Below, in pieces: positions 21,924 through 64,000 of a DNA stretch of 64,000 bases. The notes beneath the pieces were generated by a model, which saw only the letters and a program-made list of their open reading frames with translations, did not search any database and was not told where the DNA came from. Position 1 is the stretch's first letter; every line of letters starts with the position of its first letter. The translations under genes and the position numbers were made by a program. Source of the DNA: Escherichia coli (GTDB lineage: Bacteria; Pseudomonadota; Gammaproteobacteria; Enterobacterales; Enterobacteriaceae); NCBI RefSeq assembly GCF_017348835.2, contig NZ_CP071375.1. One strand, given 5' to 3'.

Positions 21924-21927
21924 TGAA

Positions 21928-23650: not shown

Positions 23651-23656
23651 AAAGCA

Positions 23657-26207: not shown

Positions 26208-26221
26208 GTGACAGCCGTATT

Positions 26222-26244
26222 GTGGCCCTCATCGGGCCACTTTT
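26222..26244 (+). terminator. Rho-independent terminator after flxA
   Basis: gtggccc tcatc gggccac followed by TTTT. Confidence 0.65.
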
Positions 26245-30535: not shown

Positions 30536-31615
30536 ATGCAGGCAGCCAATATCAGCCAGCCTGACGCCGATAAGTTGCTTGCTGCATCACGTGGTGAATT
30601 TGTTGAAGGGATTAGTGACCCGAATGATCCGAAATGGGTTAAGGGGATCCAGACCCGCGATTCTGTGAACCAGAACCAGCATGAATCGGAACGGAACTAC
30701 CAAAAAGCGGAACAAAACAGCCCAAATGCGTTACAAAACGAGCCAGAAACGAAACAGCCTGAATCAGTGGCGCAACAGGAAGTGGAAAAAGTCTGCACCG
30801 CCTGCGGTCAGACCGGCGGCGGCAACTGCCCTGATTGTGGCGCGGTGATGGGCGACGCAACATACCAAGAAACATTCGATGAAGAGTATCAGGTTGAAGT
30901 TCAGGAAGATGATCCGGAGGAAATGGAAGGCGCTGAACATCCACACAAGGAGAACGCTGGCGGCAATCAGCATCACGATAGCGATAATGAAACTGGCGAG
31001 ACGGCAGATCACTCAATTAAGGTGAACGGTCATCACGAAATCACATCCACCAGCAGGACGTGTGACCATCTAATGATCGACCTTGAAACCATGGGAAAAA
31101 ATCCTGATGCCCCGATCATCTCAATAGGTGCAATATTTTTCGATCCGCAAACCGGAGATATGGGACCGGAATTTAGTAAGACTATCGATCTGGAAACTGC
31201 TGGCGGAGTCATTGATCGGGACACCATTAAATGGTGGCTTAAGCAATCACGCGAAGCGCAATCGGCCATTATGACCGATGAAATCCCGTTAGATGATGCA
31301 CTGTTACAATTGCGGGAATTTATCGACGAAAACTCCGGTGAATTTTTTGTTCAGGTTTGGGGAAATGGAGCCAACTTCGACAACACGATTTTGCGCCGTT
31401 CATACGAACGGCAGGGGATCCCCTGCCCGTGGCGTTACTACAACGATCGCGATGTACGCACAATCGTTGAGCTGGGGAAAGCCATAGACTTCGATGCCAG
31501 AACGGCTATTCCATTCGAAGGTGAGCGCCATAATGCACTTGATGACGCCCGTTACCAGGCAAAATACGTTTCAGTTATCTGGCAAAAACTGATCCCGAGT
31601 CAGGCTGATTCTTAA
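30536..31615 (+). CDS. Prophage protein with C-terminal DEDDh-type 3'-5' exonuclease domain
   Basis: MIDLETMG... and HNALDDARY motifs; acidic low-complexity N-region; the frame is open upstream without an ATG. Confidence 0.6.
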
Positions 31616-31687
31616 TGTTCAACTGTCGCCGGTTGTGACTGGTATTCTGCAACCGGCGCTCGTCTGATGTAAGAGATAAAGAAATCG

Positions 31688-31939
31688 ATGAGCGAAGTAA
31701 TCATGATTGTCTCTCCCGGCAAATGGGTATCCGAAGAGCAGTTAATTGCGCTGAAAGGAATAAAAAAAGGTACGTTAAAAAAGGCCCGGGAAAAATCGTT
31801 TATGGAAGGAAGGGAATATAAGCATGTCGCTCATGACGGTATGCCATGGGATAACAGTCCATGCTTTTACAACCTGGAAGAAATTGATCGCTGGATTGAG
31901 CGCCAGGCATCAGCAAGACCAAGACGTCATCTTACTTGA
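31688..31939 (+). CDS. Excisionase-like protein
   Basis: 83 aa basic ORF immediately upstream of the integrase. Confidence 0.55.
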   Translation: MSEVIMIVSPGKWVSEEQLIALKGIKKGTLKKAREKSFMEGREYKHVAHDGMPWDNSPCFYNLEEIDRWIERQASARPRRHLT

Positions 31940-31958
31940 CTAAAAGCCACACTAACTA

Positions 31959-33254
31959 ATGAGAGAAGTTGAAATGAAATATCCGACAGGCGTGGAAAAC
32001 CATGGAGGGAAATTACGTATCTGGTTTGTTTATAAAGGCGTAAGAGTCAGGGAAAACCTGGGGGTTCCTGACACAGCAAAAAACAGGCGCGTTGCAGGTG
32101 AGCTACGCGCCTCTGTTTGTTACGCAATAAAAACTGGTGTTTTCGACTATGCAAAACAGTTTCCCTCCTCACGCAATCTGGAAAAATTTGGTGAGACTCG
32201 ACAAGATTTAACCATAAAAGAACTGGCTGAAAAATTTCTGGCACTGAAAGAAACTGAAGTCGCAAAAACATCACTCAACACATACCGTGCCGTCATCAAA
32301 AATATCCTGAGCATAATCGGTGAAAAAAATCTTGCCTCATCGATTAATAAAGAAAAATTACTGGAGGTTCGTAAAGAGCTACTGACTGGATACCAGATCC
32401 CCAAAAGTAACTATATTGTTACACAACCAGGGAGATCGGCTGTAACTGTAAATAATTACATGACAAATCTTAACGCCGTGTTCCAGTTTGGTGTTGATAA
32501 CGGTTACCTGGCAGATAACCCGTTTAAGGGGATCTCGCCATTAAAGGAATCAAGAACCATTCCGGATCCTCTTTCGCGGGAGGAATTCATCCGTCTTATC
32601 GATGCGTGCAGAAATCAGCAAGCCAAAAATTTATGGTGTGTTTCTGTTTATACTGGCGTTCGCCCTGGTGAGCTGTGTGCACTTGGATGGGAGGACATAG
32701 ATCTGAAAAATGGAACAATGATGATCAGGAGAAATTTAGCAAAAGACCGTTTCACGGTACCAAAAACACAGGCGGGAACCAATCGGGTCATTCATCTTAT
32801 TAAGCCAGCAATCGACGCTCTCCGGAGTCAGATGACATTAACGAGACTGAGCAAAGAGCATATCATTGATGTTCACCTCAGAGAGTATGGCAGAACAGAA
32901 AAACATAAATGCACCTTTGTTTTTCAACCTGAAGTGTCAGCGAGAGTAAAAAATTATGGTGACCATTTTACCGTTGACTCAATAAGGCAGATGTGGGACG
33001 CAGCGATAAAACGTGCCGGACTCCGCCATCGAAAATCATATCAGTCGAGACATACTTATGCCTGCTGGTCGCTGACAGCTGGTGCTAATCCGGCATTTAT
33101 AGCAAACCAGATGGGCCATGCAGATGCGCAAATGGTATTTCAGGTATACGGAAAATGGATGTCTGAAAACAATAATGCACAGGTAGCTTTGTTAAATACA
33201 CAGTTAAGCGAGTTTGCCCCAACCATGCCCCATAACGAAGCAATGAAAAATTAA
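31959..33254 (+). CDS. Tyrosine-type site-specific integrase (apparently intact)
   Basis: 431 aa; C-terminal catalytic region with R...HxxR...Y context; ~40 bp from the att repeat. Confidence 0.85.
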   Translation: MREVEMKYPTGVENHGGKLRIWFVYKGVRVRENLGVPDTAKNRRVAGELRASVCYAIKTGVFDYAKQFPSSRNLEKFGETRQDLTIKELAEKFLALKETEVAKTSLNTYRAVIKNILSIIGEKNLASSINKEKLLEVRKELLTGYQIPKSNYIVTQPGRSAVTVNNYMTNLNAVFQFGVDNGYLADNPFKGISPLKESRTIPDPLSREEFIRLIDACRNQQAKNLWCVSVYTGVRPGELCALGWEDIDLKNGTMMIRRNLAKDRFTVPKTQAGTNRVIHLIKPAIDALRSQMTLTRLSKEHIIDVHLREYGRTEKHKCTFVFQPEVSARVKNYGDHFTVDSIRQMWDAAIKRAGLRHRKSYQSRHTYACWSLTAGANPAFIANQMGHADAQMVFQVYGKWMSENNNAQVALLNTQLSEFAPTMPHNEAMKN

Positions 33255-33291
33255 TTTAATATTTATCAAATAGTTGACACGTATGACTCTT

Positions 33292-33306
33292 GAAATCCAT
33301 AAATTC
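33292..33306. repeat. Prophage att core copy (gaaatccataaattc)
   Basis: Direct repeat of 12580-12594. Confidence 0.55.
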
Positions 33307-50243: not shown

Positions 50244-51496
50244 GTGAGCCGTACTACAACTGTTGATGGCGCTCCGGCAAGCGACACTGACAAGCAAAGC
50301 ATTTCTCAGCCAAATCAATTTATTAAACGCGGTACGCCGCAATTTATGCGCGTTACCCTGGCGCTGTTCTCTGCCGGACTGGCAACATTTGCACTTCTCT
50401 ATTGTGTACAGCCTATCCTTCCGGTGCTTTCGCAGGAGTTTGGCTTAACGCCCGCGAACAGTAGTATTTCACTGTCCATTTCCACGGCGATGTTGGCTAT
50501 TGGTTTGCTGTTTACTGGCCCCCTATCCGATGCCATTGGTCGCAAACCAGTGATGGTCACGGCGCTACTGTTGGCCTCCATTTGTACGTTACTTTCGACA
50601 ATGATGACCAGCTGGCACGGCATTTTGATTATGCGCGCCTTGATTGGGCTTTCGTTAAGTGGCGTGGCAGCTGTTGGCATGACTTATCTTAGCGAGGAAA
50701 TCCACCCCAGTTTCGTGGCCTTTTCGATGGGGTTGTATATCAGCGGCAACTCAATTGGCGGCATGAGCGGACGCTTAATTAGCGGTGTCTTCACGGACTT
50801 TTTCAACTGGCGAATTGCTCTGGCGGCAATCGGTTGTTTCGCGCTGGCCTCGGCGTTGATGTTCTGGAAAATCCTCCCGGAATCACGCCATTTTCGCCCG
50901 ACTTCGCTGCGCCCTAAGACGTTATTTATCAACTTTCGTCTGCACTGGCGTGACCGGGGATTACCGTTATTGTTCGCAGAAGGCTTTTTGCTGATGGGGT
51001 CGTTCGTCACGCTGTTTAATTACATCGGCTATCGGTTGATGCTCTCCCCCTGGCATGTCAGTCAGGCCGTGGTTGGCTTATTATCGCTGGCTTATTTGAC
51101 CGGTACATGGAGCTCACCCAAAGCCGGAACCATGACCACCCGCTATGGGCGTGGTCCAGTGATGTTGTTTTCGACGGGGTTATGCTGTTTGGTTTACTGA
51201 TGACCTTATTCAGCTCGCTGTGGCTGATCTTTGCCGGAATGTTACTCTTCTCAGCAGGATTCTTCGCAGCCCACTCAGTTGCCAGCAGCTGGATCGGCCC
51301 CCGCGCAAAACGCGCTAAAGGCCAGGCCTCCTCGCTGTATCTGTTCAGTTACTATCTGGGGTCGAGTATTGCCGGGACGCTGGGTGGTGTTTTCTGGCAT
51401 AACTATGGCTGGAACGGCGTCGGCGCATTTATTGCTCTGATGCTGGTCATTGCTCTGCTGGTCGGGACGCGTTTGCATCGTCGTCTGCACGCCTGA
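50244..51496 (+). pseudogene. ynfM: MFS transporter YnfM split by a frameshift near 51176-51179
   Basis: ORFs 50244-51200 and 51107-51496 are contiguous parts of one MFS protein in different frames; junction at a G4 run. Confidence 0.7.
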
Positions 51497-53693: not shown

Positions 53694-54045
53694 GGTTCAC
53701 CTCCAGTTCAGGTTTACGCGCTTTACGGGTACCTGATTTTATCAACACAATCCCGGCGACCAGGGTGGTTAACCCGGCAATTTTCATCAGCGATAAACTT
53801 TCGTCGAATAACAAAACGCTAAACAAGGTAATAAATAAAATACCGATACCTTCCCACAGCGCATAAGCCACACCTAAGGCTATTTTTTTAACAGCGAAAG
53901 AGAGAAATATATACGACAGAGAAATCATCACCAGCATTAAAATAAAGCCGCCATTTCCCTCACTGACGCTCGCCCATTTCATAGACAGCGTACCGGTAAT
54001 TTCTGTAGCAATAGCCAGACCTAATAAAATCCAATAAATATACAT
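53680..54045 (-). CDS. mdtJ: SMR-family spermidine exporter subunit MdtJ
   Basis: 121 aa, 4-TM; overlaps the mdtI start. Confidence 0.85.
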
Positions 54046-54456
54046 TGTCCTTCTCCTGCAAGAGAATTATTTTAATTTTCGCTTAATTCAGCGAAACCAA
54101 AGTAAAGTGGTCAAGCCCCGCGCTTAGCGCAAGCTTTGGCAGAAGAAAGGACTAAAGCGCGTTGCGCCAGTGCTGCTCACCTACGAGCAAGATAGTGGAT
54201 GAGGTACGAAGATGGGTAAATGTAGAAAATAACGTCCTGAACAAATTGTCCATAATATTACAATTATCCGCAGTGTTGCTTCTCGTCATCGCGGATGATA
54301 ATTGTCCTCGGTAGTTGAACACGCCTGATTTGTATCATAGCTTAAGAATTAACTCAAAATATTTTCACTTCTTTACCTGAGCGGTTTGATTTTCGTTATG
54401 ATGACGGAGCGAAAAAGACATTATTATTAGCAAAGGAAGAAAAAACGGGGACAAGC

Positions 54457-54621
54457 ATGGCAAAGCCGATCATCACGCTCAATGGCCTAAAAATCGTCAT
54501 TATGTTGGGAATGCTGGTCATTATTCTCTGCGGTATCCGTTTTGCCGCCGAGATCATCGTGCCGTTTATTCTCGCATTATTTATTGCTGTTATATATAAC
54601 TTATTTCACTTAACGCATTGA
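54457..54621 (+). pseudogene. tqsA: tqsA (AI-2 exporter) 5' fragment, truncated after codon 46 by an inserted element
   Basis: [46 protein letters not shown], then 8 unrelated codons and a stop; phage-like DNA follows. Confidence 0.8.
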
Positions 54622-55045
54622 TTTAATTAAATAATTTGCACCACAAAAAGTGCCAAAAATCGCAAAATGACTACACCAGTGACTACACCGTTCGGTGCAC
54701 CGTATGAAACAACGTGGAACAAATAGACACAAGAAATATACAGGCGGATCATCTTTCCAGGGGGAAGCGCACCAATTCATGAGGGGCGTTAATGTCGATA
54801 TGGGGATCCCCACCTACCGGAATTTTTTTCCGGTTAAACGTTAATCAGGCTGGTGGGCTTTACCTGTTCGGTAGGTGTTATGATTATCGTAATACCTTTC
54901 CCCCAATGGGGTAAAAGCATCAACCGTAACGAAAGTCGTTATGGTTGCCACCGATACCCCAAATTTGGGTATCACGAGTAAGCCCCAAAATCTGGGTGTT
55001 ACTCTTACTACCCAAACTACGGGTAGTTTCCGTAGTTTCATGGTC

Positions 55046-55065
55046 GAGTTGCAGATCTGCAACTC
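55046..55065. repeat. 20 bp perfect palindrome (gagttgcagatctgcaactc) within a repeat-rich stretch
   Basis: Read directly; neighbouring CCCAAA(N)GGGT-type repeats at 54957-55030. Confidence 0.6.
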
Positions 55066-55319
55066 CCCCATTAACCACAGGCGAATTTCCGCCTTCGGTC
55101 ATTCCTTAATCATCTGCGTAATCATAATGATTATTCAGCAAGCGCAATTTTGCGCTTTGCTTAAAGTTCAGCGAGTTACCGCGCCGACTTCCTCAAATTG
55201 AGGTTTCCGAAAATATCAGCGGGTTAGCGATTAAGCTGACCATTAATTAAACTGCGAAAATGTCGTAGTTGTGAGGGGTGTAGCCAACCCATTTTTGGGC
55301 CGTCGGGAATATCAACCAG

Positions 55320-55601
55320 TTACCGCCGCAACCGCTCCGGCTTCTTCCAGTGGTACGTTATTTTCTCCTTCTCCCGATACATCTCCACGCGGCGACGGTA
55401 GGCCAGCAACTCAAGAACTCTGGTTCGTATGTTGCGCATATCCACGGCATTAAGTTCTATACCATCACGGCGCATCACCTCCGCAACAACACGCGCATAA
55501 TTTTCAGCGGTCACGCTGTCCGGCTGCATGGCCTGTTCGTCAACCTGCTGGCTGATTCCGGCAACGCGGCGGATTAATCCCAGTATTTCGGCTTCTATCA
55601 T
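55320..55601 (-). CDS. Hypothetical protein (93 aa)
   Basis: ORF only. Confidence 0.3.
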   Translation of the reverse strand: MIEAEILGLIRRVAGISQQVDEQAMQPDSVTAENYARVVAEVMRRDGIELNAVDMRNIRTRVLELLAYRRRVEMYREKEKITYHWKKPERLRR

Positions 55602-55665
55602 TGTGCCCCCATCGTTCTGAAAGTCTGGTGTCGTCGGGTCCTTCCTGGAATTATGGCCCGTTACG

Positions 55666-55677
55666 GGGCGGCGACCT
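55666..55677 (+). other. Lambda-type cosN sequence GGGCGGCGACCT (plus orientation) with lambda-like cosB-type flank
   Basis: Exact 12-mer; downstream flank resembles the lambda left end as recalled (TTTATGAAAATTTT..., AAAAGAAACGACA). Confidence 0.7.
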
Positions 55678-55856
55678 CGCGGTTTTTATCTGTTTATGAA
55701 AATTTTTCTGGAAAAAGCATGTCGGTACTTCTCGAACATAACTATTTGTTTTTAAATAGATACACAATAAAAAGAAACGACACGGTAATCATCTAAAATG
55801 GCGATTTATGACGCTTTCATGTCGTTTCTCAGTTTTGTTCAATAATTGCGCGTCTG

Positions 55857-56369
55857 TTACTCGCCTTTCTTCTGTAGCAACTTTTCCGGTACGTTTCCGG
55901 TTGTTTCTTTCAAGTAATCAGCCAGTATCTGTGGGAGGTTGTCGGCAACTCTGGCACTGGCATTACAGGCTTTAACCACTTCCCTTTTAAGCCTATCCAG
56001 CATGGCGTGGGTAATCTGTGGGAAGCTCCTTTGCATAGTAAGCGGGAGGCTGTCCATGATTGATGAAATCTGACTCGCCAGCTTTGAAAGCGCGTACAGG
56101 CAAAACTCAGTATCAATCACGTCACCGCGATCGCGCTCGTTTTTAAGTTCCTGCGCCTCCGCCTGTGCTGTCAGTAATCTGATCCTGACTCGTAAGAGTT
56201 CATCATCATCAATATCGCCTTTGTCGTTTGTAAGCTGGCTAATTGCATTGTTAACCCTATTGTCTATCACGCTGGCAACATCGTAAAACGCCTCACGGCC
56301 TTTACGTTCAACGGGAGTCACTCCCCACTTGTCGAACGCTGTCGCACTTACACGGCAGCTTTTCGCCAT
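55857..56369 (-). CDS. Small-terminase (Nu1)-like protein with diverged N-terminal DNA-recognition region
   Basis: 170 aa; central/C-terminal region closely resembles NohA at 16716-17261 (LTAQAEAQELKNERD...); N-terminal ~45 aa diverged and shortened. Confidence 0.7.
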   Translation of the reverse strand: MAKSCRVSATAFDKWGVTPVERKGREAFYDVASVIDNRVNNAISQLTNDKGDIDDDELLRVRIRLLTAQAEAQELKNERDRGDVIDTEFCLYALSKLASQISSIMDSLPLTMQRSFPQITHAMLDRLKREVVKACNASARVADNLPQILADYLKETTGNVPEKLLQKKGE

Positions 56370-56399
56370 GTTTTTTTGTTCATCAGGTGCGATTTCATT

Positions 56400-56437
56400 A
56401 ATACACCAACTTAATTACTGCTTCAGGTTGGTGTATT
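56400..56437. repeat. 11 bp inverted repeat (AATACACCAAC N16 GTTGGTGTATT) between cos and the terS-like start
   Basis: Read directly; lies in the terS-like leader. Confidence 0.55.
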
Positions 56438-56531
56438 GTTTGCATCTTTCCCTTTTCATTCATAAAGATAGAGCAAACAACAAAACCACCACCACCCCCC
56501 TGAAAAGGCTCATAAATAGCGAAAAACCGCG

Positions 56532-56543
56532 AGGTCGCCGCCC
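56532..56543 (-). other. Second lambda-type cosN sequence (minus orientation), about 165 bp upstream of the terS-like gene
   Basis: Exact 12-mer AGGTCGCCGCCC on the plus strand; inverted relative to 55666-55677. Confidence 0.7.
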
Positions 56544-56604
56544 CGTAACGGGTCCATATGCCGGAAAGGTCCCGTAAAAAAAGCCGGATTTCTCCGGCCT
56601 TGTC

Positions 56605-57018
56605 TCAGATGGTTTTCAGTATGCGATCGATGTCGCCGTCATCGCCCTGGTTTCTGCCATCGTATGCCATGCCAGCTGATACGGCTTGCGGGCTGTGCAT
56701 GTCCATAAAGTTTTCAAAGGCTGCGGTAAGCTCTGGTGCAACCTTTGGGCGCTCCTGCTCTATGGTCATGTTCAGGATTTCACGAGCATTATCGACGCTA
56801 ATACATGGCACGTTTGCCATTGCACGTAACAGCGGCTGATAGTCTTTATGCTCATGAAGCGCCATAATCGCATCAGCGCGCGGCTTGTCCTGCTCTTCCA
56901 GTTTGTTTAGTTGATATACGGCCTCATAGGTTGATAAACCTCTGTCAGCCATTGCCCGCGCTTCGGCTTTAAATTTACTCGCCAGCGGTAGCGTCATGAT
57001 GCTTTCATTCGTTGCCAT
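56605..57018 (-). CDS. Hypothetical head-module protein (137 aa)
   Basis: ORF between the gpD-like and terS-like genes; no recognisable motif. Confidence 0.3.
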   Translation of the reverse strand: MATNESIMTLPLASKFKAEARAMADRGLSTYEAVYQLNKLEEQDKPRADAIMALHEHKDYQPLLRAMANVPCISVDNAREILNMTIEQERPKVAPELTAAFENFMDMHSPQAVSAGMAYDGRNQGDDGDIDRILKTI

Positions 57019-57030
57019 CGTTCCCCCTGC

Positions 57031-57430
57031 TTATCGGGCCAGCGGCTGAACGGATACGCCGGAACCCGCAAAGGCGGCGCATTTTTTCGCATCGGTGTCG
57101 ACGCTCTCAGGCCAGTTAACGGCGGCAATATTGAATATCCCCGTCTTGTAACACTGTGCTGATTTCTGCTTTGACGTGTCCACAGGATACGAAGTCAGAT
57201 AAACAGCCTTGCCAGATTCCTGACCATCCCACGGCTTAAACTCGCCATTGTCCGCCAGCATCAGCGGGGTAAATTCCTGAATAACGCCAGCATCAGCGGG
57301 GTAAATTCCTGAATAACGCCAGCATCAGCGGGGTAAATTCCTGAATAACGCCAGCATCAGCGGCAAAATGTACCAGCGTCGTGGCGACCTGCTGACTGCC
57401 TGCAAATAACTCAATGTATGGAGTGTCCAT
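57031..57430 (-). pseudogene. Lambda gpD-like head decoration gene disrupted by a 64 bp tandem duplication
   Basis: 5' part (MDTPYIELFAG...TPLML) and 3' part (ADNGEFKPWDG...YKTGIF...AFAG) resemble lambda gpD; frame is restored by removing two 32 bp repeat copies. Confidence 0.65.
57254..57363. repeat. Tandem repeat: 32 bp unit (gccagcatcagcggggtaaattcctgaataac) x3 plus a 14 bp partial copy
   Basis: Perfect copies at 57254-57285, 57286-57317, 57318-57349; partial at 57350-57363. Confidence 0.9.
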
Positions 57431-57441
57431 AGAATCCCCCG

Positions 57442-58497
57442 TTAAGCAATTTTGACAGTAACAAATTTGCGAATATCTGCCGGAACCGGCTGCGGTGCGC
57501 TGTGCGTCTGCACGTACTCAATCGCCGGATCTCCGTCCTCAATCCAGTTTTTCGGGTAGTACATGTTTTGCGTTGCCCCCGTTCTTACTGCGTCCTGATC
57601 CATAATCGCACCATAGGCCACCAGCCCTTTATTGTTGGTGTTGCCCAGGACAAGCAAATCAGGCTCAAGGAAATATTTTTCTGTGCCGTCGCTGTCAGTG
57701 TATTTGCCGGAATAGACGATAAGGGCCAGATCACCAAGATAGCCTTTAAAGCTCACCACTTCGCCCAGGTTTTTACATGCCAGCTCTGCGGCGGATTCTG
57801 AACCACGGGAGAGATCGTACAGTTCACGGAATTTTTTAAAGCTGCGTAACATGCGCCATACATCAACGCCCATAATCATGACGTTGGCGGGGCAACCTGC
57901 CTGATCTGCGTATAGTTCAATGTCATATATTGGGTCGTGTATGTCTTTATCCTGCTCAGACCATTTTTTACCGTCGGCCTGCTCTATGATGTTTTTTTCC
58001 GGTATCTTCCAGTCGATTTCATAGCGTTCTATGCCTTCGCCCTCAATGATGTTTTTTCCGGTCGTTACCGCATTCACCGCCAGCCATTCAACGTGTGCCT
58101 TAATGGCGTTTATCTGGCGGCGCATGTTGCCAGTAATCAGGCGCATACGGCGGTAGGTAGGATCGTTAAGCTGTGCCGGATCTTCTCCAGCCATGCGCAT
58201 TATTGTTTTTAATGGATCGATTTCGTGTTTTGGCTTCATGTAGCCAGGGCGGATAATGCTGGTTTCGTACCCTTTATCGCGCTGAACCTGGCTGCCAACC
58301 ATAGGCGAACAAAACGCCGACATAGTGACTTCTTCAATATCCAGGTTATCTAACATGATGTCCTGCGTGTTGAATGTCGCCACGTTCGGGAAAAACAGCG
58401 CGGTAAACAGCGGACTAAATTTAAATTCCGCAATATCCTCGCGATTCAGGTACGCGAAAAGCTGGTGTGTGTTAAGTGCTATTGCTTTGACTGCCAT
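57442..58497 (-). CDS. Major capsid protein, lambda gpE homologue
   Basis: 351 aa; shared blocks KFxPLF..LFF, PGYxKPKHE, DPxYRR, SxKGxxGDxAIVVYSG, YPKNW..GDPA, SAP with lambda gpE as recalled. Confidence 0.8.
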   Translation of the reverse strand: MAVKAIALNTHQLFAYLNREDIAEFKFSPLFTALFFPNVATFNTQDIMLDNLDIEEVTMSAFCSPMVGSQVQRDKGYETSIIRPGYMKPKHEIDPLKTIMRMAGEDPAQLNDPTYRRMRLITGNMRRQINAIKAHVEWLAVNAVTTGKNIIEGEGIERYEIDWKIPEKNIIEQADGKKWSEQDKDIHDPIYDIELYADQAGCPANVMIMGVDVWRMLRSFKKFRELYDLSRGSESAAELACKNLGEVVSFKGYLGDLALIVYSGKYTDSDGTEKYFLEPDLLVLGNTNNKGLVAYGAIMDQDAVRTGATQNMYYPKNWIEDGDPAIEYVQTHSAPQPVPADIRKFVTVKIA

Positions 58498-58736
58498 TAT
58501 TCGCCCCCATAATTTTTGTGCATCCCAAGCGCCGCAAGTAAATAAGATCGCACAAGTGAACCTATCGACGGCTCCGGCGTCATCAGCGGATCCAGTCCAG
58601 CCGCAACGCCAGCTTCATAGTTTTTTTTGTGGCGCTGCTTGAGCACCTCCACGATTTCGGGGCTTATGTACACCGAAACACCGCCTTTTTTCTCTTCAGC
58701 CATAGTAAGAAATTCCTCTTCGACTAAAAAAATCAT
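58497..58736 (-). CDS. Hypothetical protein
   Basis: ORF only; start may be an internal Met (MAEEKK). Confidence 0.3.
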   Translation of the reverse strand: MIFLVEEEFLTMAEEKKGGVSVYISPEIVEVLKQRHKKNYEAGVAAGLDPLMTPEPSIGSLVRSYLLAALGMHKNYGGE

Positions 58737-58954
58737 AACTGGATGTTTATCCAGTCCTGATTATAATCAGAATTGCATTTTATGCAATGATATTGAGTTA
58801 TGTTGCAAATTATGAAATGATTATCCCGATCACGAACGCCAGTGCATCCAAAAACCTCATATGCAAAAGCCCGATAAGAACCCTCTGACCTTATCGGGCT
58901 TTTTTTGGGCGCAAAAAAGCCGGATTGCTCCGGCTATGTGTGCTGTGTGCTGGC

Positions 58955-59179
58955 TCAGTCTCTGATCTCTTTCAGAAATTCTATCAATGCATCTATCTGT
59001 TCAGGATTTACCGCCAGCATTTCACCGGATAGAGCACATCTCACAAAACCATGCTGATCCTTTTCAATCAGTGCGCCCGTCTCCAGGAATGCGCGGTAAT
59101 CATTGATGCTCATCGTCTCCATGTTGTCAGCATGGTATTTATCACGCTGTTTTAATATCTCATCAAATTTCATCGGCAT
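58955..59179 (-). CDS. Hypothetical protein (74 aa)
   Basis: ORF only. Confidence 0.3.
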   Translation of the reverse strand: MPMKFDEILKQRDKYHADNMETMSINDYRAFLETGALIEKDQHGFVRCALSGEMLAVNPEQIDALIEFLKEIRD

Positions 59180-59305
59180 TGTTTTTTTCCTCTGTTGTGT
59201 CTGTTTGTTTCAGATAGTAACTATGCCTGACCGTGACGAAAACCCGGTAATGCGCCATACCGTTTCAACTGGTGCAAAAAAAGCCGTATTTCTCCGGCTG
59301 TTTGA

Positions 59306-59578
59306 TTAGCTGTCCTGGTAATTGCGCCATATTTCATCACCAGCACCATCTATACCCATTTCGGCATAAGTGCGATCGACTGCCTTTTTCAGGTCTCCGA
59401 AATTATCCGGCGGCTCCGGTGCCCTCTGTGCCTTCCTTGAACATTCCAGCCGTCGCATCGTGATGTGATGCCGTTCCTTGTCTGTCTCCACCAGCTGCAT
59501 GACTTCACCCCATCGCGCCGCCGCCCTCCGGTAAAAGCCTTTCGCCTCCAGTTCCTCCGCTATGCGGTCATGTACCAT
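59306..59578 (-). CDS. PerC-family transcriptional activator-like protein (Pch-like)
   Basis: MVHDRIAEELEAKGFYRRAAARWGEVM... resembles the PerC/Pch N-terminal signature from memory; start at the internal Met of the ORF. Confidence 0.6.
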   Translation of the reverse strand: MVHDRIAEELEAKGFYRRAAARWGEVMQLVETDKERHHITMRRLECSRKAQRAPEPPDNFGDLKKAVDRTYAEMGIDGAGDEIWRNYQDS

Positions 59579-59588
59579 CGTCACCCCC

Positions 59589-59999
59589 TCAGAACGAAAT
59601 ATCATCACCGTAAGGGTCATCGCCTCCCGCTGGTGGCTGATTACCCTGTGTGCCTGTGGTTTTGCGTCTGTTCCCGCCAGGAAGTGCCGCACGGGCACTG
59701 ATTACGCTGTCTGCAATAACCTGATAACCCTGCCGCGTTTCCCCATTCTGTCCGGTCCACTGGCTGACCTGCATCGTGCCGGATACGCTGGCAACGTCGC
59801 CTTTTTGATGTTTAGCCAGGAAGTCGGCCTGCTTACCAAATGCGATGACCGATAGCCATAACGTCGCCTGCCCATCCTGCGCCTGACTACATGGCAGCGA
59901 TACCGCCATACGCGCCAGCGTCATCGGTGTACCCTTGCTGGTCTGTTTTACCTGCTGGTCGTCCACCAGCCGCCCGTAAGCCGCTATCTGTGCTGTCAT
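59589..59999 (-). CDS. SSB-like single-stranded DNA-binding protein
   Basis: 136 aa with Gly/Pro-rich tail ending in the acidic DDISF (compare SSB DDIPF). Confidence 0.55.
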   Translation of the reverse strand: MTAQIAAYGRLVDDQQVKQTSKGTPMTLARMAVSLPCSQAQDGQATLWLSVIAFGKQADFLAKHQKGDVASVSGTMQVSQWTGQNGETRQGYQVIADSVISARAALPGGNRRKTTGTQGNQPPAGGDDPYGDDISF

Positions 60000-60304
60000 G
60001 CCGTCTGCTCTCCGGTTTTAACGTTGATGGTTGTTACCTGTTCCGCTTCGGCAATCTCCCGTTCTGTCAACGTGGCAAAGTTTGCCGCTGCTGTGGTCAT
60101 GAATGCGCTTATCAGTTCGGGATGCTCCTTCGCGTATCCTTCCCCCGCGTGGCGGTCTATCGTTCTGATTGCCACCTTTAAAGCCAGTTCAGCCATATCT
60201 AACGCCTTATATTTCGGCTCTGTTCTGTCTCTGCGTTTTTGGGTCATTTCTCGCAACCTCTCACTTTTTCGCCTCACTTTTTCAAGCGTCTCACTTCGTC
60301 GCAA
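59996..60304 (-). CDS. Hypothetical protein
   Basis: ORF overlaps the SSB-like start by 4 bp. Confidence 0.3.
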   Translation of the reverse strand: MRRSETLEKVRRKSERLREMTQKRRDRTEPKYKALDMAELALKVAIRTIDRHAGEGYAKEHPELISAFMTTAAANFATLTEREIAEAEQVTTINVKTGEQTA

Positions 60305-60447
60305 TTGGGATTTTTGGTTTTTCTATGTGTGTGTTTCATAAGTATTTTTTTACCCCTCACTTTTGAGGATGTATACAGGTAAAAAAGTGAGGGAGAGCAG
60401 GCTAATTTTGGCCCTCTTTCTATCCACCTCGCTTTTGCTCCTCACTT

Positions 60448-61854
60448 TTATAGCGGCGCTACATCATCCCCATCGATACGAATAACCCCATCTTTTTCCA
60501 GCTTGTACAGCCAGCGCCGGAAGTTTTTCATTTCATACCCCAGTTTTTTCATGTCATCACGTAACAGCGGGATCGTGCACTTGTCGCCGTTCTGTGTGCG
60601 TGAACGGATGCACCCCCATAGCGCGGTATGGTTTTCCGTCTTGTTCCCTGCCTCCTCGATGCGCTCCAGTTCTGCCGGTTCGCGTGGGATGTCAATCACC
60701 ACCATGGACACGATTTCTTCACCCTCAGGATCCGTAAATACCTCCACGCTCTTAAGGTCGTAGGCACTTTCTTTTGGCTCCTCCGCGTCCTTCATCTTCG
60801 TACATGCTGCAACCAGCGCCGTAGCCTCTGAATGTTCCCGACTGATTCGGAACTCAGCATCAAGCGCCGCACGGAATGCACTGGAACCCCGCGCCCCTTT
60901 CGTCTCATCCTTGCCGGAATGATGCACAACCAGAACCGTGGCCCCCGTGGCCTGCTTTATCGCGTCACACCCCTGGATAAACGCCCCCATGTCGCGGGAG
61001 TCATTTTCATCATGACCACCAAAGCAACGGGCCAGCGTGTCAATGACAATCATCCGCACCCTTTCGCCCGTTCTGTCCTGCACTAATCCGGCGGTCCTGA
61101 TAACCTGTTCCACATAGTCCGGCGATGCGGGGAATACTGGCGAATTGACGATACACAAATCAGTAACCGCCTTACCGTGGGTTATTTCCCATGCCTTAAC
61201 GCGGCGCTTTACGCCCATACTTCCTTCACCAGCAACATAGATAACCGCGCCTTTACACACCCTGCGGCCTCCCCATTTCATTCCAGTGGCAACATGACAC
61301 GCCCACGAAATGGCAAGGAACGACTTATAGGAACCGCTCGCCCCGTAGGTGCTGCATAATGCTTCCGCCGGAATAAGCCCCTTAATCACGTAGCTTTGCT
61401 GCGCGTCGAACCCTTCCGATCCCCATGAAATCGGTAGCGTGATTTTTTGTTTTCCTCCGTTCATGATCAGGCTTTCCCCTCTCTCCCATGTCTCCCGTAG
61501 CCGTGGAAGCTGGTCGGTCCATTTCTCCAGTAATTCGAAGTTTTCAGAAAGCAGCCGCGCTTCATGGACTCCGGCGATCGCCAGTTTTGTCGCTATGGTT
61601 AACAGCTGCGCTTCGTCAATATTTCCGGCGCGTATCACCGTTACCCTGTATCGCCCCTCATCAACAATCTGCAGGTTGTCCAGTTCGCTTAACTGATAAC
61701 GCCCCAGGTAAACGGGAGGCGTGGAGTCTCCCGCCTTTTTGGCCTGTGCAATGATGTAGTGCTCTGCAAATGAGTGCGCATCATTCCCCGCGAAAATAAT
61801 TGCTTCGGTGTGTTTGTCTTTCGGTAATAGTTTTACGTTCGGTGCCAGTTTCAT
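60448..61854 (-). CDS. RecA-fold AAA ATPase (RepA/DnaB-like replication protein)
   Basis: 468 aa; Walker A GASGSYKS; Walker-B-like MIVIDTL; C-terminal wHTH-like region. Confidence 0.7.
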   Translation of the reverse strand: MKLAPNVKLLPKDKHTEAIIFAGNDAHSFAEHYIIAQAKKAGDSTPPVYLGRYQLSELDNLQIVDEGRYRVTVIRAGNIDEAQLLTIATKLAIAGVHEARLLSENFELLEKWTDQLPRLRETWERGESLIMNGGKQKITLPISWGSEGFDAQQSYVIKGLIPAEALCSTYGASGSYKSFLAISWACHVATGMKWGGRRVCKGAVIYVAGEGSMGVKRRVKAWEITHGKAVTDLCIVNSPVFPASPDYVEQVIRTAGLVQDRTGERVRMIVIDTLARCFGGHDENDSRDMGAFIQGCDAIKQATGATVLVVHHSGKDETKGARGSSAFRAALDAEFRISREHSEATALVAACTKMKDAEEPKESAYDLKSVEVFTDPEGEEIVSMVVIDIPREPAELERIEEAGNKTENHTALWGCIRSRTQNGDKCTIPLLRDDMKKLGYEMKNFRRWLYKLEKDGVIRIDGDDVAPL

Positions 61855-62150
61855 TTTTTACCCCTGAATACGTTAAGCATCTTTTTTATTTCCTGAATAT
61901 TGGCGCGTGCTTTCTCCCTGCTGGTTGGAACGTTACGCGGTACAGCCTGCACCAGAGAAAAATCACGGTCGAACTGATAAACAGGCATCACGCAATCATA
62001 TTCGTAGCCTTCACGACGGTAGGTTACGCGCCGTTCCTCCACGCCCTTAATCATTACCGTGCCGCCGTACTGGTCGCGGTAAATATCACCGCGCATGAAT
62101 TTAGTGCGAGTTTTGCCACTGGCAGTTAAGCCAGAATATTTAAGTTTCAT
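61851..62150 (-). CDS. Hypothetical protein (99 aa), translationally coupled to the ATPase gene
   Basis: Stop overlaps the ATPase start (ATGA). Confidence 0.3.
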   Translation of the reverse strand: MKLKYSGLTASGKTRTKFMRGDIYRDQYGGTVMIKGVEERRVTYRREGYEYDCVMPVYQFDRDFSLVQAVPRNVPTSREKARANIQEIKKMLNVFRGKK

Positions 62151-62155
62151 TATTT

Positions 62156-62389
62156 TTATTCTCCGGTGTGCTGTTCTTTATATCTGTCGTGCAATAGATC
62201 TATTTCTTGCAGTTCCATTATTACATGCTCAAGAATCGTTATTAATGCCGTGGCAATTCTTGATTTTTGTTTGTCGCGTTCATTGTCGCCAAGTGTTTCA
62301 AGCCATATGCGCAATATTTCCAGCATGTTTTCACTGTGAGAAAGTGCAAGAAATGCGCGGTCTATTGTTTCGAGGTAAATATCACGCAT
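62156..62389 (-). CDS. Hypothetical small helical protein (77 aa)
   Basis: ORF; starts MRDI. Confidence 0.3.
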   Translation of the reverse strand: MRDIYLETIDRAFLALSHSENMLEILRIWLETLGDNERDKQKSRIATALITILEHVIMELQEIDLLHDRYKEQHTGE

Positions 62390-62390
62390 A

Positions 62391-62612
62391 TTAATCCCCG
62401 TCCGTTGTTTTTCTTAAAATAACTTCTGTCACGAAATCAGCATAGTTAGCGGCAATATCAAGAATATTTAGCCCTGTATCTCTGTGCTCATCAGTGCAAA
62501 GAAAGAAAAAAGCCACCCGCATAATTTCAGATATTGACGAAAGCGCATCAGCCGCATCATCAGGAACGCCGGAAAATTCTTGTTTCAGGGAATTAAAACG
62601 ATCATCACGCAT
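62391..62612 (-). CDS. Hypothetical small protein (73 aa from MRDD)
   Basis: ORF; possible paralogue of neighbours. Confidence 0.3.
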   Translation of the reverse strand: MRDDRFNSLKQEFSGVPDDAADALSSISEIMRVAFFFLCTDEHRDTGLNILDIAANYADFVTEVILRKTTDGD

Positions 62613-62877
62613 AACCCCCCCCATTTTCATAATCTGCAACAAGAATATTTTTAGCGTCATTCAGCGACCGCGTGGCGGTGTATCGGATACATTCCAGGGC
62701 GAACAATGTGTATTCCTCCCGTTCTTCCTTTTGTGCAAGCTCTGCCGTGCATTCAATATCAATAAGCGCGTGCATCAGCGTAGTGAGTGCGGCTGCGTCC
62801 GGACGGATGTTATTGCACATGGTGTACCCCTCCGCATTTTTTTTCGTTAGAAATAAGCGTTCTTCTTTCCTGTTCAT
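62605..62877 (-). CDS. Hypothetical small protein
   Basis: ORF; start uncertain. Confidence 0.25.
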   Translation of the reverse strand: MNRKEERLFLTKKNAEGYTMCNNIRPDAAALTTLMHALIDIECTAELAQKEEREEYTLFALECIRYTATRSLNDAKNILVADYENGGGYA

Positions 62878-63043
62878 CGCTCAGGAATACGCAGACCTCA
62901 CCGCTAAGGCGTTTAAGTAAGCCGATGATTGCCCCTGATTCGCTGTCGGTCATCATGCCAGGGTAATCCTCTGCCAGTGCGCAAATAACTTCGATTTGGT
63001 GGGCGCGTTCTGCTGCCTGTTGTAGTGTGATTTCCTGGCTCAT
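62810..63043 (-). CDS. Hypothetical small protein (77 aa from MSQEIT), first gene of the leftward operon
   Basis: ORF. Confidence 0.3.
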   Translation of the reverse strand: MSQEITLQQAAERAHQIEVICALAEDYPGMMTDSESGAIIGLLKRLSGEVCVFLSDEQERRTLISNEKKCGGVHHVQ

Positions 63044-63327
63044 AAGCCTACCCCCTGGCGAATACGGGCGGCGAATACAGCAACACAACCTGACGGGCAA
63101 CGGTTACGCGCTTCGCGTTCCGTCCAGGCGGTTACGTGGATTATTTGAGATTCTCCGGCACTCAGTGCCAGAAAACGCCACACAAAGGCCGTTTGTGTGT
63201 GTACAAGGTGTGGTATATGATTTACAGCAACCATAACGGCTCCTAGTTTACGTTGTTGGTTAGAAGCCCTGCGAGTGGTAACGACACTTGCGGGGCTTTG
63301 TCTTTTCATCGATTACCTTGATAAAGG

Positions 63328-63407
63328 TGTCAGCCACTATATTAGTAACGGGTGTCAGCCACGTCAATAGTGTTTTTCCGTTTTCTTGTGTGTATACTGT
63401 CAGCCAC
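63328..63407 (+). promoter_or_regulatory. Three direct repeats of TGTCAGCCAC with a TATACT -10-like hexamer: candidate operator/promoter
   Basis: Repeats at 63328-63337, 63353-63362 and 63398-63407; TATACT at 63392-63397. Confidence 0.55.
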
Positions 63408-63428
63408 CTAATAACGAGGAAATCAGAT

Positions 63429-63608
63429 ATGGCAACAAAAGCAGTTAATGCAAAATCCAAAAAGCTTGAGGCTCGAGTACCACACGCAATAGCTGATGCT
63501 GTAGAAAATTTAAAGGAAGATGGCGAAAGTACAGGGCAATTTATCGTTTCGGCACTTGAAGGCGAGATCAAACGCCGCCAGCGCCGCAAGGCCAAAGAAT
63601 CAGAATAA
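63429..63608 (+). CDS. Small basic DNA-binding-like protein (possible ribbon-helix-helix regulator)
   Basis: 59 aa from MATKAVNAKSKKLEARVPHAIADAVENLKEDGE... Confidence 0.45.
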   Translation: MATKAVNAKSKKLEARVPHAIADAVENLKEDGESTGQFIVSALEGEIKRRQRRKAKESE

Positions 63609-63650
63609 TCACTATCAGCGCCGTGGTGTGAGGTATTACGGCGCATTGCT

Positions 63651-63839
63651 ATGCAGGACAACACAATGACCGATAAAGAATTGACCAAAACATTATCACC
63701 GGCACGGAAAAGACGGCGCAGAAAGATAGAACATGAATCAGAAAGATTCGCGCCATGTGCTTTTGCCCTTGAGCAATTCCTTAAAGAGTACAGGGAAAAG
63801 CGCTCATTGCAGGTATGGCAACGAACTGAACCAGACTGA
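63651..63839 (+). CDS. Hypothetical small basic protein
   Basis: ORF with RRRRK stretch. Confidence 0.3.
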   Translation: MQDNTMTDKELTKTLSPARKRRRRKIEHESERFAPCAFALEQFLKEYREKRSLQVWQRTEPD

Positions 63840-63935
63840 TTGCATTGCCCACCAGCCTGATAGCGGCTATCATCCCCGTGCTTATGTTTGGGATCACACA
63901 CACAAACGGCGCAGCGGGTTATCTGTTCAGAAAGG

Positions 63936-63962
63936 CGGCTCCATTTCGGGGCCGCTTTTTTT
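63936..63962 (+). terminator. Rho-independent terminator
   Basis: cggctcc atttc ggggccg stem followed by T7. Confidence 0.55.
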
Positions 63963-64000
63963 ATGCCTGAAAAACCCCAATTTTGTGGTTTTCCAGTCTC

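What the first reader, a model, noticed from the sequence alone, without database searches (positions are those of the whole stretch)
57031..58497. Lambda gpE and gpD homologues in reversed order relative to lambda and without the rest of the head module
The 351 aa protein shares several conserved blocks with lambda major capsid protein gpE, and the adjacent gene shares TPLML, WDG, YK(S/T)G and AFAG blocks with decoration protein gpD. In lambda D precedes E and both sit between Nu3 and FI; here E precedes D and they are followed by one 137 aa ORF and the terS-like gene. An element carrying only shell and decoration proteins is unusual and may indicate capsid remodelling.
Basis: partly seen in the sequence, partly recalled or inferred. 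Interest (0 to 1): 0.7.

Follow-up and report, generated by a model that had tools for sequence, protein, structure and literature searches.

The report
Capsid genes of a known phage satellite
The lambda-like capsid and decoration genes are real, but they are the already described late module of a common E. coli phage satellite (a phage-inducible chromosomal island of the EcCICFT073 type), and their function is still unknown.

Summary
The 351-aa ORF at 57442-58497 (-) is a full-length gpE-family capsid protein, 44% identical to lambda gpE. The next gene is a gpD/SHP-type decoration gene. A 137-aa ORF and a Nu1-type terS follow.

The locus is not unusual. The window is E. coli PE164, and the genes lie in an 11.5-kb island inserted in tqsA. 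The island has an integrase, a RepA helicase, ssb, PerC and two inverted lambda-type cosN sites flanking terS. It has no portal, protease, TerL or tail genes.

Gene order and sequence match the late module of EcCICFT073: capsid 94%, decoration 99% and the 137-aa protein 93% identical. PDB 3BQW is the crystal structure of the EcCICFT073 capsid protein. The three-gene block is present in 596 of 5,426 complete E. coli genomes.

Published deletions of the EcCICFT073 capsid and decoration genes changed neither transfer nor lambda interference. Its DNA is packaged at phage length. Capsid remodelling is therefore not supported.

New details from this work:
- The 137-aa protein is homologous to the Nu3/gp6 scaffold domain at the C-terminus of phage-21/Gifsy-type prohead proteases.
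- All three genes are under purifying selection.
- In PE164 the decoration gene is broken by a 32-bp tandem triplication seen in no other genome.
- In PE164 terS carries an A7/A8 frameshift.

The parts
54585..54593 (+). Left attachment-site core TGCTGTTAT, inside codon ~46 of tqsA. The tqsA 5' fragment is 54457-54600. The island runs from here past the end of the window.
   Evidence: The 9-bp core is repeated at L001 9186 and 20678. tqsA is annotated as two fragments flanking the island. The same tqsA-island junction is present in 245 of 5,426 genomes.
55320..55601 (-). 93-aa ORF of unknown function, the last gene of the late module. It is conserved in every related PICI examined.
   Evidence: phrog_1561, 1e-54. 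Present in CFT073, O55:H7, L006, L007 and L008. dN/dS 0.10-0.38.
55666..55677 (+). cosN GGGCGGCGACCT downstream of terS, in inverted orientation. It is the counterpart of one of the two EcCICFT073 cosN sites.
   Evidence: Exact match; 3 matches in the window against 0.21 expected. The same pair occurs in CFT073 and O55:H7. Both EcCICFT073 cos sites are functional according to PMC6092414.
55857..56398 (-). Nu1-type small terminase gene. The longest ORF is 170 aa (55857-56369). The true start near 56398 is put out of frame by an A7 run where O55:H7 has A8.
   Evidence: phrog_57, 3e-48. 37% identical to lambda Nu1. PGAP marks it 'frameshifted'. The homopolymer difference is visible in the alignment. 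No similarity to RppA, which occupies this slot in CFT073.
56532..56543 (-). cosN about 135 bp upstream of terS, placed as in lambda. The flanking sequence CTCGCGGTTTTTCGCTATTTATGA is nearly identical to lambda's.
56576..56599 (-). Terminator-like hairpin GGCCGGAgaaaTCCGGC followed by a T run, directly after the 137-aa ORF. It closes the capsid-decoration-scaffold transcription unit before the upstream cosN.
   Evidence: Read directly from the sequence. Near-identical hairpins lie at 58935-58918 and 59299-59282.
56605..57018 (-). 137-aa all-helical protein, a stand-alone homologue of the Nu3/gp6 scaffold domain. It has two ~35-aa repeats and a C-terminal F-E-x-F-M-x-x-H-S-P motif.
   Evidence: phrog_53 'head maturation protease', profile positions 495-567 of 583, 1.7e-10. 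BLASTP 3e-11, 2e-12 and 2e-9 to residues ~411-493 of the gpC homologues of a CFT073 lambdoid prophage, PhiR12_2 and Gifsy-1. A profile search of 1.84 billion proteins gave 21 hits, including an S49 peptidase C-terminus and Nu3-like proteins. AlphaFold2 model is helical, pLDDT 77. 93% identical to its CFT073 counterpart.
57031..57430 (-). gpD/SHP-type head decoration gene, inactivated in this strain.
57253..57363 (.). Perfect 32-bp tandem repeat, 3.5 copies, inside the decoration gene. It adds 64 nt relative to the one-copy form and causes the frameshift.
   Evidence: Tandem Repeats Finder score 222, 100% matches. Among 596 genomes with this gene, only PE164 matches the repeat region in one piece; the others listed span 82 bp, which is one copy.
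57442..58497 (-). gpE-family (HK97-fold) major capsid protein, 351 aa, of the PICI-specific clade.
   Evidence: 94% identical to CFT073 c1499. The crystal structure of c1499 is PDB 3BQW. At most 48% identical to any phage capsid protein in 50,697 phage records. dN/dS 0.10-0.15.
58497..58703 (-). 68-aa ORF whose stop overlaps the capsid gene start, so the two are probably translationally coupled. Function unknown.
   Evidence: PGAP CDS WP_000796963.1 is identical in PE164, O55:H7 and 2017C-4173W12. phrog_3255, 1.6e-54.
59306..61854 (-). Replication and regulation part of the island inside the window: PerC-family regulator (59306-59578), ssb (59589-59999) and RepA-family helicase (60448-61854). 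The integrase lies outside the window at L001 19273-20502.
   Evidence: PGAP annotation. phrog_44 (ssb) and PerC-type activator PHROGs.

Best explanation
IDENTITY (probability at least 0.95).
The genes are the late or packaging module of an 11.5-kb phage-inducible chromosomal island (PICI) of the EcCICFT073 family, integrated in tqsA of E. coli PE164. The module reads, in the direction of transcription:
- a 68-aa ORF,
- the gpE-type capsid protein,
- the gpD/SHP-type decoration protein,
- a Nu3/gp6-like scaffold protein,
- a terminator-like hairpin,
- cosN,
- a Nu1-type TerS (RppA occupies this slot in EcCICFT073),
- an inverted cosN,
- a 93-aa ORF.
Capsid, decoration and scaffold genes all trace to a phage-21/Gifsy-like lambdoid head module. 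They now form a lineage of their own that is inherited within PICIs.

MECHANISM (inferred, probability about 0.35-0.4).
The three proteins form a self-contained shell kit. Capsid-capsid, capsid-decoration and capsid-scaffold contacts would all be internal to the island's own proteins. The kit would assemble, alone or mixed with helper gpE, on the helper's portal. The helper's protease would mature it. The helper's TerL, guided by the island's TerS and cos sites, would fill it. The result would be full-size heads carrying island concatemers: 4 x 11.5 kb = 46 kb, which is within lambda's packaging range. The kit would be redundant whenever the helper supplies a compatible shell, which would explain why laboratory deletions show no phenotype.

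STATE IN PE164.
The decoration gene is inactivated, and terS may be as well.
For: Identity:
- Island limits, integrase, helicase, ssb and PerC are annotated, and no portal, protease, TerL or tail genes are present.
- The 9-bp att core was found at both junctions.
- Order and sequence match EcCICFT073 and the O55:H7/O157 islands.
- Two inverted cosN sites flank terS, as in EcCICFT073.
- The same module order is kept in PICIs only 65-67% identical at the DNA level. One of them is embedded in a lambdoid prophage portal gene.

Shell kit:
- The capsid protein is full length and colinear with lambda gpE. The EcCICFT073 capsid protein it matches at 94% identity has a solved crystal structure, 3BQW.
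- Capsid and decoration proteins co-occur and diverge together across PICI lineages: capsid 54-64% and decoration 49-55% identical. They remain at most 46% and 40% identical to phage proteins, including those of their own helper.
- The third gene is homologous to the scaffold domain of the same phage group that supplies the closest capsid and decoration relatives.
- Purifying selection: dN/dS is 0.10-0.15 for capsid, 0.04-0.15 for decoration and 0.2-0.55 for the 137-aa gene.
- The block is present in 11% of complete E. coli genomes.
Against: - Deleting c1499 or c1500 in EcCICFT073 changed neither transfer nor interference, so the genes are not required with the helpers tested (PMC6092414).
- No island-encoded capsid protein has been shown in particles.
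- In one divergent PICI (L007) the third gene is an unrelated helix-turn-helix protein, so the scaffold-like gene is not universal.
- Fold searches with the 137-aa model found nothing.
- The scaffold assignment rests on about 80 aligned residues.
- In PE164 the decoration gene is broken, so selection on it is relaxed in at least this strain.
Confidence: 0.5

Rival explanations
1. Capsid size remodelling. The island capsid homologue, with the 137-aa protein, would redirect helper capsid assembly to small island-sized heads, as Ccm of SaPIbov5 does.
For: A satellite-encoded capsid homologue (Ccm) makes small capsids in SaPIbov5. PmCI172, which also carries a capsid gene, is packaged in small heads (PMC6092414). 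A scaffold-like protein sits next to the capsid gene.
Against: For EcCICFT073, whose capsid protein is 94% identical, all DNA packaged with lambda was phage-sized. Deleting c1499 or c1500 did not relieve interference or change transfer. Four island copies add up to 46 kb, a full lambda headful (for the island size).
Confidence: 0.1
2. Spare parts. The island copies would back up helper genes that are interrupted, in helper-embedded PICIs that integrate into E, B, C or A. They could equally complement defective or incompatible lambdoid prophages and so widen the range of usable helpers.
For: Related PICIs are embedded in prophage late genes: L007 sits in a portal gene. The 11capE family integrates in capsid gene E and carries its own E homologue (PMC10111431). 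This idea overlaps with the best explanation, since it also requires an assembly-competent shell.
Against: This island and most of its close relatives sit in chromosomal sites, tqsA or the phoQ-roxA interval. The island proteins are at most 46% identical to helper proteins. Direct replacement inside a helper lattice is therefore uncertain.
Confidence: 0.2
3. Non-structural role or relic. The genes would be leftovers of the phage ancestor of PICIs, or would act as decoys, sensors or regulators rather than building blocks.
For: No phenotype was found for the deletions. Expressing the individual genes does not affect lambda. The decoration gene is a pseudogene in PE164.
Against: Purifying selection is strong (dN/dS about 0.1) and the block is retained across PICI lineages that have diverged to saturation at synonymous sites. 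The capsid protein keeps its full-length fold. A cognate decoration protein has no obvious use unless an expanded capsid lattice forms. The PE164 repeat expansion occurs in none of the other 595 genomes.
Confidence: 0.15

Closest known systems
EcCICFT073, the prototype Gram-negative PICI of E. coli CFT073 (Fillol-Salom 2018, 2019)
   Same: Same late-module order: 68-aa ORF, capsid (c1499), decoration (c1500), 137-aa ORF, cosN, packaging-specificity gene, inverted cosN, 93-aa ORF. Proteins are 94%, 99% and 93% identical. The backbone genes seen at this locus match: a PerC-family regulator in CFT073, and integrase, RepA helicase, ssb and PerC in the O55:H7 island, which lies at the same phoQ-side site.
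   Different: The slot that holds RppA (c1503, 144 aa) in EcCICFT073 holds a Nu1-type TerS here, with no detectable similarity between the two. The integration site is tqsA rather than next to phoQ. In PE164 the decoration gene and terS are frameshifted.
PICI between phoQ and roxA in E. coli O55:H7 CB9615 and O157:H7 strains
   Same: Same module including the Nu1-type terS. About 91% DNA identity over 79% of the island. The integrases are 91% identical.
   Different: Different att core and chromosomal site. Decoration gene and terS are intact there.
Lambda, phage 21 and Gifsy-1 head modules (Nu1-A-W-B-C/Nu3-D-E-FI)
   Same: The capsid, decoration, scaffold-domain and TerS proteins are homologous to E, D/SHP, the C-terminus of gp5/gp6 (Nu3) and Nu1. 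The cosN sequence is identical.
   Different: Only four of the head and packaging genes are present. Their order is inverted (E, D, Nu3-like, Nu1) while the direction of transcription is kept. The scaffold domain stands alone without the S49 protease. Identities are only 33-48%.
Capsid-forming PICIs (EcCIEDL933 type)
   Same: A satellite that encodes its own HK97-fold capsid protein and a small terminase.
   Different: cf-PICIs also encode portal, maturation protease, head-tail connectors, HNH and TerL (bioRxiv 10.1101/2022.09.08.507074). None of these is present here.
Ccm of SaPIbov5
   Same: A capsid-protein homologue carried by a cos-packaged satellite.
   Different: Ccm makes small capsids and interferes with the helper. 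The EcCICFT073 homologue does neither with the helpers tested. No decoration or scaffold partner is mentioned for Ccm in the papers read here.

Membership tests
Gram-negative PICI, EcCICFT073 type | Discrete 10-20 kb island bounded by att repeats, with a tyrosine integrase at one end | tested here: met
   About 11.5 kb between TGCTGTTAT cores in tqsA. The integrase is at L001 19273-20502.
Gram-negative PICI, EcCICFT073 type | Its own replication module (primase or helicase with an adjacent ori) and an AlpA-type regulator after int | tested here: inconclusive
   A RepA-family helicase and ssb are present, and a 62-aa HTH regulator sits next to int by PGAP annotation. AlpA family membership and the ori were not tested.
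Gram-negative PICI, EcCICFT073 type | No lysis, tail, portal or large-terminase genes | tested here: met
   Full annotation of the island. PHROG scan of the late-region ORFs.
Gram-negative PICI, EcCICFT073 type | Helper-type cosN site or sites next to the packaging-specificity gene | tested here: met
   Two exact GGGCGGCGACCT sites flank terS, as in CFT073 and O55:H7.
Gram-negative PICI, EcCICFT073 type | Helper-dependent induction, packaging and high-frequency transfer | not testable with these tools
   Shown experimentally only for EcCICFT073 (PMC6092414).
Lambda gpE family major capsid protein (PF03864) | Full-length match to the family profile and to gpE | tested here: met
   PF03864 at 9.8e-49 over model positions 15-328 of 329. 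44% identity to gpE. PDB 7VI9 at 1e-82 and 3BQW at 2e-227.
Lambda gpE family major capsid protein (PF03864) | Assembles into a capsid shell | not testable with these tools
   No particle data are available for any PICI copy.
gpD/SHP head decoration protein | Sequence homology to gpD/SHP | tested here: met
   phrog_49 at 2.6e-27. 1TD0 at 1.5e-13 and 1C5E at 3.5e-9.
gpD/SHP head decoration protein | Intact reading frame | tested here: not met
   The 64-nt tandem duplication shifts the frame in PE164. The gene is intact in CFT073 and O55:H7.
Nu3/gp6 scaffold domain of lambdoid S49 prohead proteases | Homology to the C-terminal scaffold region | tested here: met
   BLASTP 2e-12 to 2e-9 against residues ~411-493 of three gpC homologues. 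phrog_53 C-terminal positions. Profile-search hits P0043, P0044 and P0049. No match to lambda's own gpC/Nu3 and no Pfam family.
Nu3/gp6 scaffold domain of lambdoid S49 prohead proteases | Binds the capsid protein and is removed on maturation | not testable with these tools
   Inference only.
Capsid-forming PICI | Encodes portal, protease, head-tail connectors and TerL in addition to the capsid protein | tested here: not met
   None of these genes is in the island.
Rpp-type packaging redirection | Presence of an Rpp homologue | tested here: not met
   The 170-aa protein has no similarity to RppA. It is a Nu1 homologue.

The most novel reading that the evidence does not exclude
EcCICFT073-type PICIs would be 'shell-forming' satellites, an intermediate between classical PICIs and capsid-forming PICIs. 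They would supply their own capsid protein, scaffold and decoration protein, plus TerS or Rpp and cos. They would steal only the portal, protease, TerL, head-completion proteins and tail from the helper. The transducing particles would then have a satellite-made shell on a phage-made vertex.
Probability: 0.3. Interest if true: 0.6.

Novelty: already known. Interest (0 to 1): 0.25.

Why it matters
Capsid and decoration genes in E. coli PICIs were reported in 2018, and their role has stayed unexplained. That is a small but real open question in satellite biology.

This analysis adds three things:
- The gene that follows them is a stand-alone scaffold-domain homologue.
- The three genes form a co-inherited set under purifying selection.
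- All three derive from a phage-21/Gifsy-like head module.

Together these turn 'no phenotype' into a testable hypothesis: a satellite-encoded shell that is redundant with the helper's shell. For the genome scan itself, the locus is an ordinary member of a common, described element.

Tried and rejected
- Pfam and NCBIfam gave nothing for the 137-aa protein.
- A PDB sequence search of the 137-aa protein gave nothing.
- Foldseek of its AlphaFold2 model against BFVD and PDB gave only noise, E > 2.
- The word-indexed homologue search returned only close E. coli relatives, many named 'phage head-tail connector protein' by NCBI. Nothing found here supports that name.
- BLASTP of the 137-aa protein against lambda gpC/Nu3 was negative, E 0.3. 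The homology is to the phage-21/Gifsy-type C-terminus only.
- The terS product has no similarity to RppA.
- Rfam found no RNA family in 54000-64000.
- I asked whether the tqsA insertion was a novel site. It is not: 245 genomes share the junction.
- I asked whether the capsid gene was a recent capture from a helper. This was rejected: it is at most 48% identical to any phage record and at most 46% identical to the phage capsid proteins compared directly, including the helper that one related PICI is embedded in.
- I considered AlphaFold2 on a fused capsid-scaffold chain. I did not run it, because a six-row alignment would make either outcome uninterpretable.
Full report
WHERE THE WINDOW COMES FROM

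The last 9.6 kb of the window is 100% identical to the E. coli PE164 chromosome (NZ_CP114128.1, a pig isolate). In that record the AI-2 transporter gene tqsA is split into two fragments by an insert of about 11.5 kb. The two junctions share a 9-bp core, TGCTGTTAT. The left junction is at window 54585-54593. The insert runs past the window end, and its integrase lies outside the window at L001 19273-20502.

Read in the direction of transcription (minus strand), the insert carries:
- a tyrosine integrase,
- a small HTH regulator,
- an Icd-like gene,
- several small ORFs,
- a DUF4222 protein,
- a RepA-family helicase (60448-61854),
- ssb (59589-59999),
- a PerC-family regulator,
- two small ORFs,
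- the genes of the finding.

It has no portal, protease, large terminase, head-completion, tail or lysis genes.

CHECKING THE OBSERVATION

The 351-aa ORF at 57442-58497 (-) is a complete gpE-family capsid protein.
- Pfam PF03864: 9.8e-49 over almost the whole model.
- phrog_29: 1e-106.
- 44% identity to lambda gpE over 328 residues.
- Alignment with phage E proteins is colinear, with only a short N-terminal extension.

The next gene is a gpD/SHP homologue.
- phrog_49: 2.6e-27.
- PDB hits to phage 21 SHP and lambda gpD.

The gene starts near 57430 and is interrupted by a perfect 32-bp tandem repeat of 3.5 copies at 57253-57363. The repeat adds 64 nt and shifts the frame. PGAP also calls the gene frameshifted. 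With one copy of the repeat the product is 111 aa and 99% identical to CFT073 c1500.

Of 596 complete E. coli genomes that carry this gene, only PE164 matches the repeat region in one piece. The other genomes listed span 82 bp, which corresponds to one copy.

The order E before D is real. It is the opposite of lambda and of the closest phage relatives, Gifsy-1 and PhiR12_2.

The 137-aa ORF (56605-57018) follows, and then a Nu1-type small terminase gene. Its product is 37% identical to lambda Nu1 and matches phrog_57 at 3e-48. The N-terminus of terS is out of frame because of an A7 run where the O55:H7 island has A8. PE164 also shows frameshifts in the core genes ynfM and ynfF. This homopolymer difference may therefore be an assembly error.

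WHAT THE LOCUS IS

The same late module is present in E. coli CFT073 next to phoQ. Its order is 68-aa ORF, capsid, decoration, 137-aa ORF, a 144-aa ORF and a 93-aa ORF. The capsid, decoration and 137-aa proteins are 94%, 99% and 93% identical to those in the window. That element is EcCICFT073, the prototype phage-inducible chromosomal island (PICI) of Gram-negative bacteria.

The 2018 description names c1499 as a putative capsid protein and c1500 as a head decoration protein. It reports that deleting either gene affects neither island transfer nor interference with lambda. It also reports that all DNA packaged with lambda is phage-sized (PMC6092414).

[quoted passage not shown] Only c1503 (RppA) blocked lambda (PMC6739421). 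In the window, the RppA slot is occupied by the Nu1-type terS, and the two proteins are unrelated in sequence. The 2018 paper already noted that some of these islands carry a terS homologue.

PDB 3BQW, 'putative capsid protein of prophage', is 100% identical to c1499. It matches the window protein at 2e-227.

A later survey states that a capsid gene is present in 21 of 29 reference Gram-negative PICIs (PMC10111431).

PACKAGING SIGNALS

The lambda cohesive-end sequence GGGCGGCGACCT occurs twice in the island, in inverted orientation on either side of terS: at 56532-56543 (-) and 55666-55677 (+). A third copy at 17439 belongs to the cryptic Qin prophage. CFT073 and O55:H7 have the same inverted pair. 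Both EcCICFT073 cos sites were shown to be functional. The site upstream of terS lies about 135 bp before the gene, and its flanks are almost identical to lambda cos.

HOW COMMON IT IS

- The capsid-decoration-137-aa block is present at about 89-93% DNA identity in 596 of 5,426 complete E. coli genomes.
- The tqsA junction is shared by 245 genomes.
- More distant PICIs (65-67% DNA identity) keep the order capsid, decoration, one small gene, terS, 93-aa ORF.
- One of these distant PICIs is embedded in the portal gene of a lambdoid prophage (L007). That prophage's own head genes have the canonical D-then-E order on the same strand.
- Another (L008) sits among myovirus tail genes.

The E-then-D order is therefore a signature of the PICI module, not a peculiarity of this strain.

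THE 137-aa ORF

It has no Pfam, NCBIfam or PDB match. It does match the last ~75 profile positions of phrog_53 'head maturation protease' at 1.7e-10.

BLASTP aligns its residues 49-131 with residues ~411-493 of the ~500-aa gpC homologues of three phages:
- a lambdoid prophage of CFT073 that carries the full Nu1-A-W-B-C-D-E head module, 39% identity, 3e-11;
- PhiR12_2, 2e-12;
- Gifsy-1, 2e-9.

That region is the Nu3/gp6 scaffold part of these protease-scaffold proteins, according to the annotations.

A profile search of 1.84 billion representative proteins found only 21 relatives. Among them are an S49 peptidase matched at its C-terminus (P0049) and Nu3-like repeat proteins (P0043, P0044). The shared features are ~35-aa repeats and a C-terminal F-E-x-F-M-x-x-H-S-P motif.

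The AlphaFold2 model is all-helical. Residues 1-90 are confident and the C-terminus is poorly ordered. Fold searches with the model were uninformative. There is no detectable similarity to lambda's own gpC/Nu3.

The closest phage relatives of the island capsid protein include Gifsy-1 and phage 21 (46-48% identity). The best solved-structure match of the decoration protein is phage 21 SHP, ahead of lambda gpD. The scaffold-like protein points to the same group. A single ancestral head module of the phage-21/Gifsy type is therefore the simplest origin for all three genes.

EVOLUTIONARY SIGNALS

Among islands with synonymous divergence of 0.15-0.32, dN/dS is:
- 0.10-0.15 for the capsid gene,
- 0.04-0.15 for the decoration gene,
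- 0.2-0.55 for the 137-aa gene.

Divergent PICI lineages share 54-64% capsid identity and 49-55% decoration identity. They are at most 46% and 40% identical to lambda, to the CFT073 prophage, or to the helper in which one of them is embedded. No phage record exceeds 48% capsid identity. The genes are therefore old, vertically inherited PICI genes maintained by selection. They are neither recent captures nor decaying relics.

HOW IT MOST LIKELY WORKS

Shown:
- The locus is the late module of a known satellite family.
- Packaging of that family uses helper TerL directed to the island's own cos sites (literature on EcCICFT073).
- The capsid and decoration genes are dispensable with the helpers tested.

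Inferred:
- A capsid protein, its cognate decoration protein and a scaffold form the one subset of head proteins whose main contacts are with each other.
- A decoration protein is useful only on an expanded capsid lattice.
- The most economical reading is that the island can build shells, alone or mixed with helper subunits, on the helper's portal.
- This would be redundant when a compatible helper shell is available.
- Four island copies (46 kb) fill a lambda-size head, which agrees with the phage-length DNA reported.

I put this mechanism at about 0.35-0.4. The rivals are:
- size redirection, 0.1, contradicted by published data;
- spare parts for interrupted or defective helpers, 0.2, overlapping with the main model;
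- a non-structural role or relic, 0.15, disfavoured by the selection data.

VERDICT

The 'unusual' and 'remodelling' interpretation is not supported. The feature is already described in the literature. This particular copy is partly damaged, with a broken decoration gene and possibly a broken terS. The only new element is the scaffold-domain assignment of the third gene and the resulting shell-kit hypothesis.

Noticed in passing
window 57253-57363: In the intact decoration gene, the 13-nt string GCTGATGCTGGCG occurs twice, 32 nt apart, and is read in two different frames (ADAG and LMLA). The PE164 triplication looks like slippage between these two copies. None of the other 595 genomes with the gene shows the expansion.
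   Followed up: partly
window 59299-59282, 58935-58918 and 56599-56583 (- strand): Three near-identical terminator-like hairpins (AGCCGGAG.AAT.CGGCT followed by a T run) punctuate the late region. They lie before the 74-aa ORF, before the 68-aa/capsid unit and after the 137-aa ORF. Late expression may therefore depend on antitermination.
   Followed up: no
window 54668-54690 and L001 20528-20550; also L002 5536 and 16516: A doubled 10-bp motif (TGACTACACC-AG-TGACTACACCG) sits near both ends of the island. A variant of it sits near both ends of the O55:H7 island. These are probably integrase arm-type binding sites.
   Followed up: partly
window 58497-58703 (-): A 68-aa ORF overlaps the capsid gene start. 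Its protein (WP_000796963.1) is identical in three islands whose capsid proteins differ by 5-8%. Its N-terminus resembles a ribbon-helix-helix DNA-binding motif, judged by eye only.
   Followed up: no
window ~14000-33300: Cryptic Qin-type lambdoid prophage with nohA, a truncated terL, an IS3 and an ISEsa1 fragment. It holds the third lambda-type cosN of the window, at 17439-17450.
   Followed up: partly
window 50244-51496 (ynfM); L009 41102-43524 (ynfF) and 21802-22337 (rrrQ): Several core or prophage genes are annotated as frameshifted in this assembly. Some single-base frameshifts, including the A7 run in terS at about 56375, may therefore be assembly errors.
   Followed up: no
L008 (E. coli PapRG-04-4, NZ_CP049201.1) 5778-16336: A related PICI with a lambda-E-type capsid gene lies between baseplate and other genes of a contractile-tail prophage. 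It may be a helper-embedded PICI in a non-lambdoid phage.
   Followed up: no
proteins P0001-P0033: NCBI names many homologues of the 137-aa protein 'phage head-tail connector protein'. Nothing found here supports that name. The detectable homology is to the Nu3/gp6 scaffold domain.
   Followed up: yes
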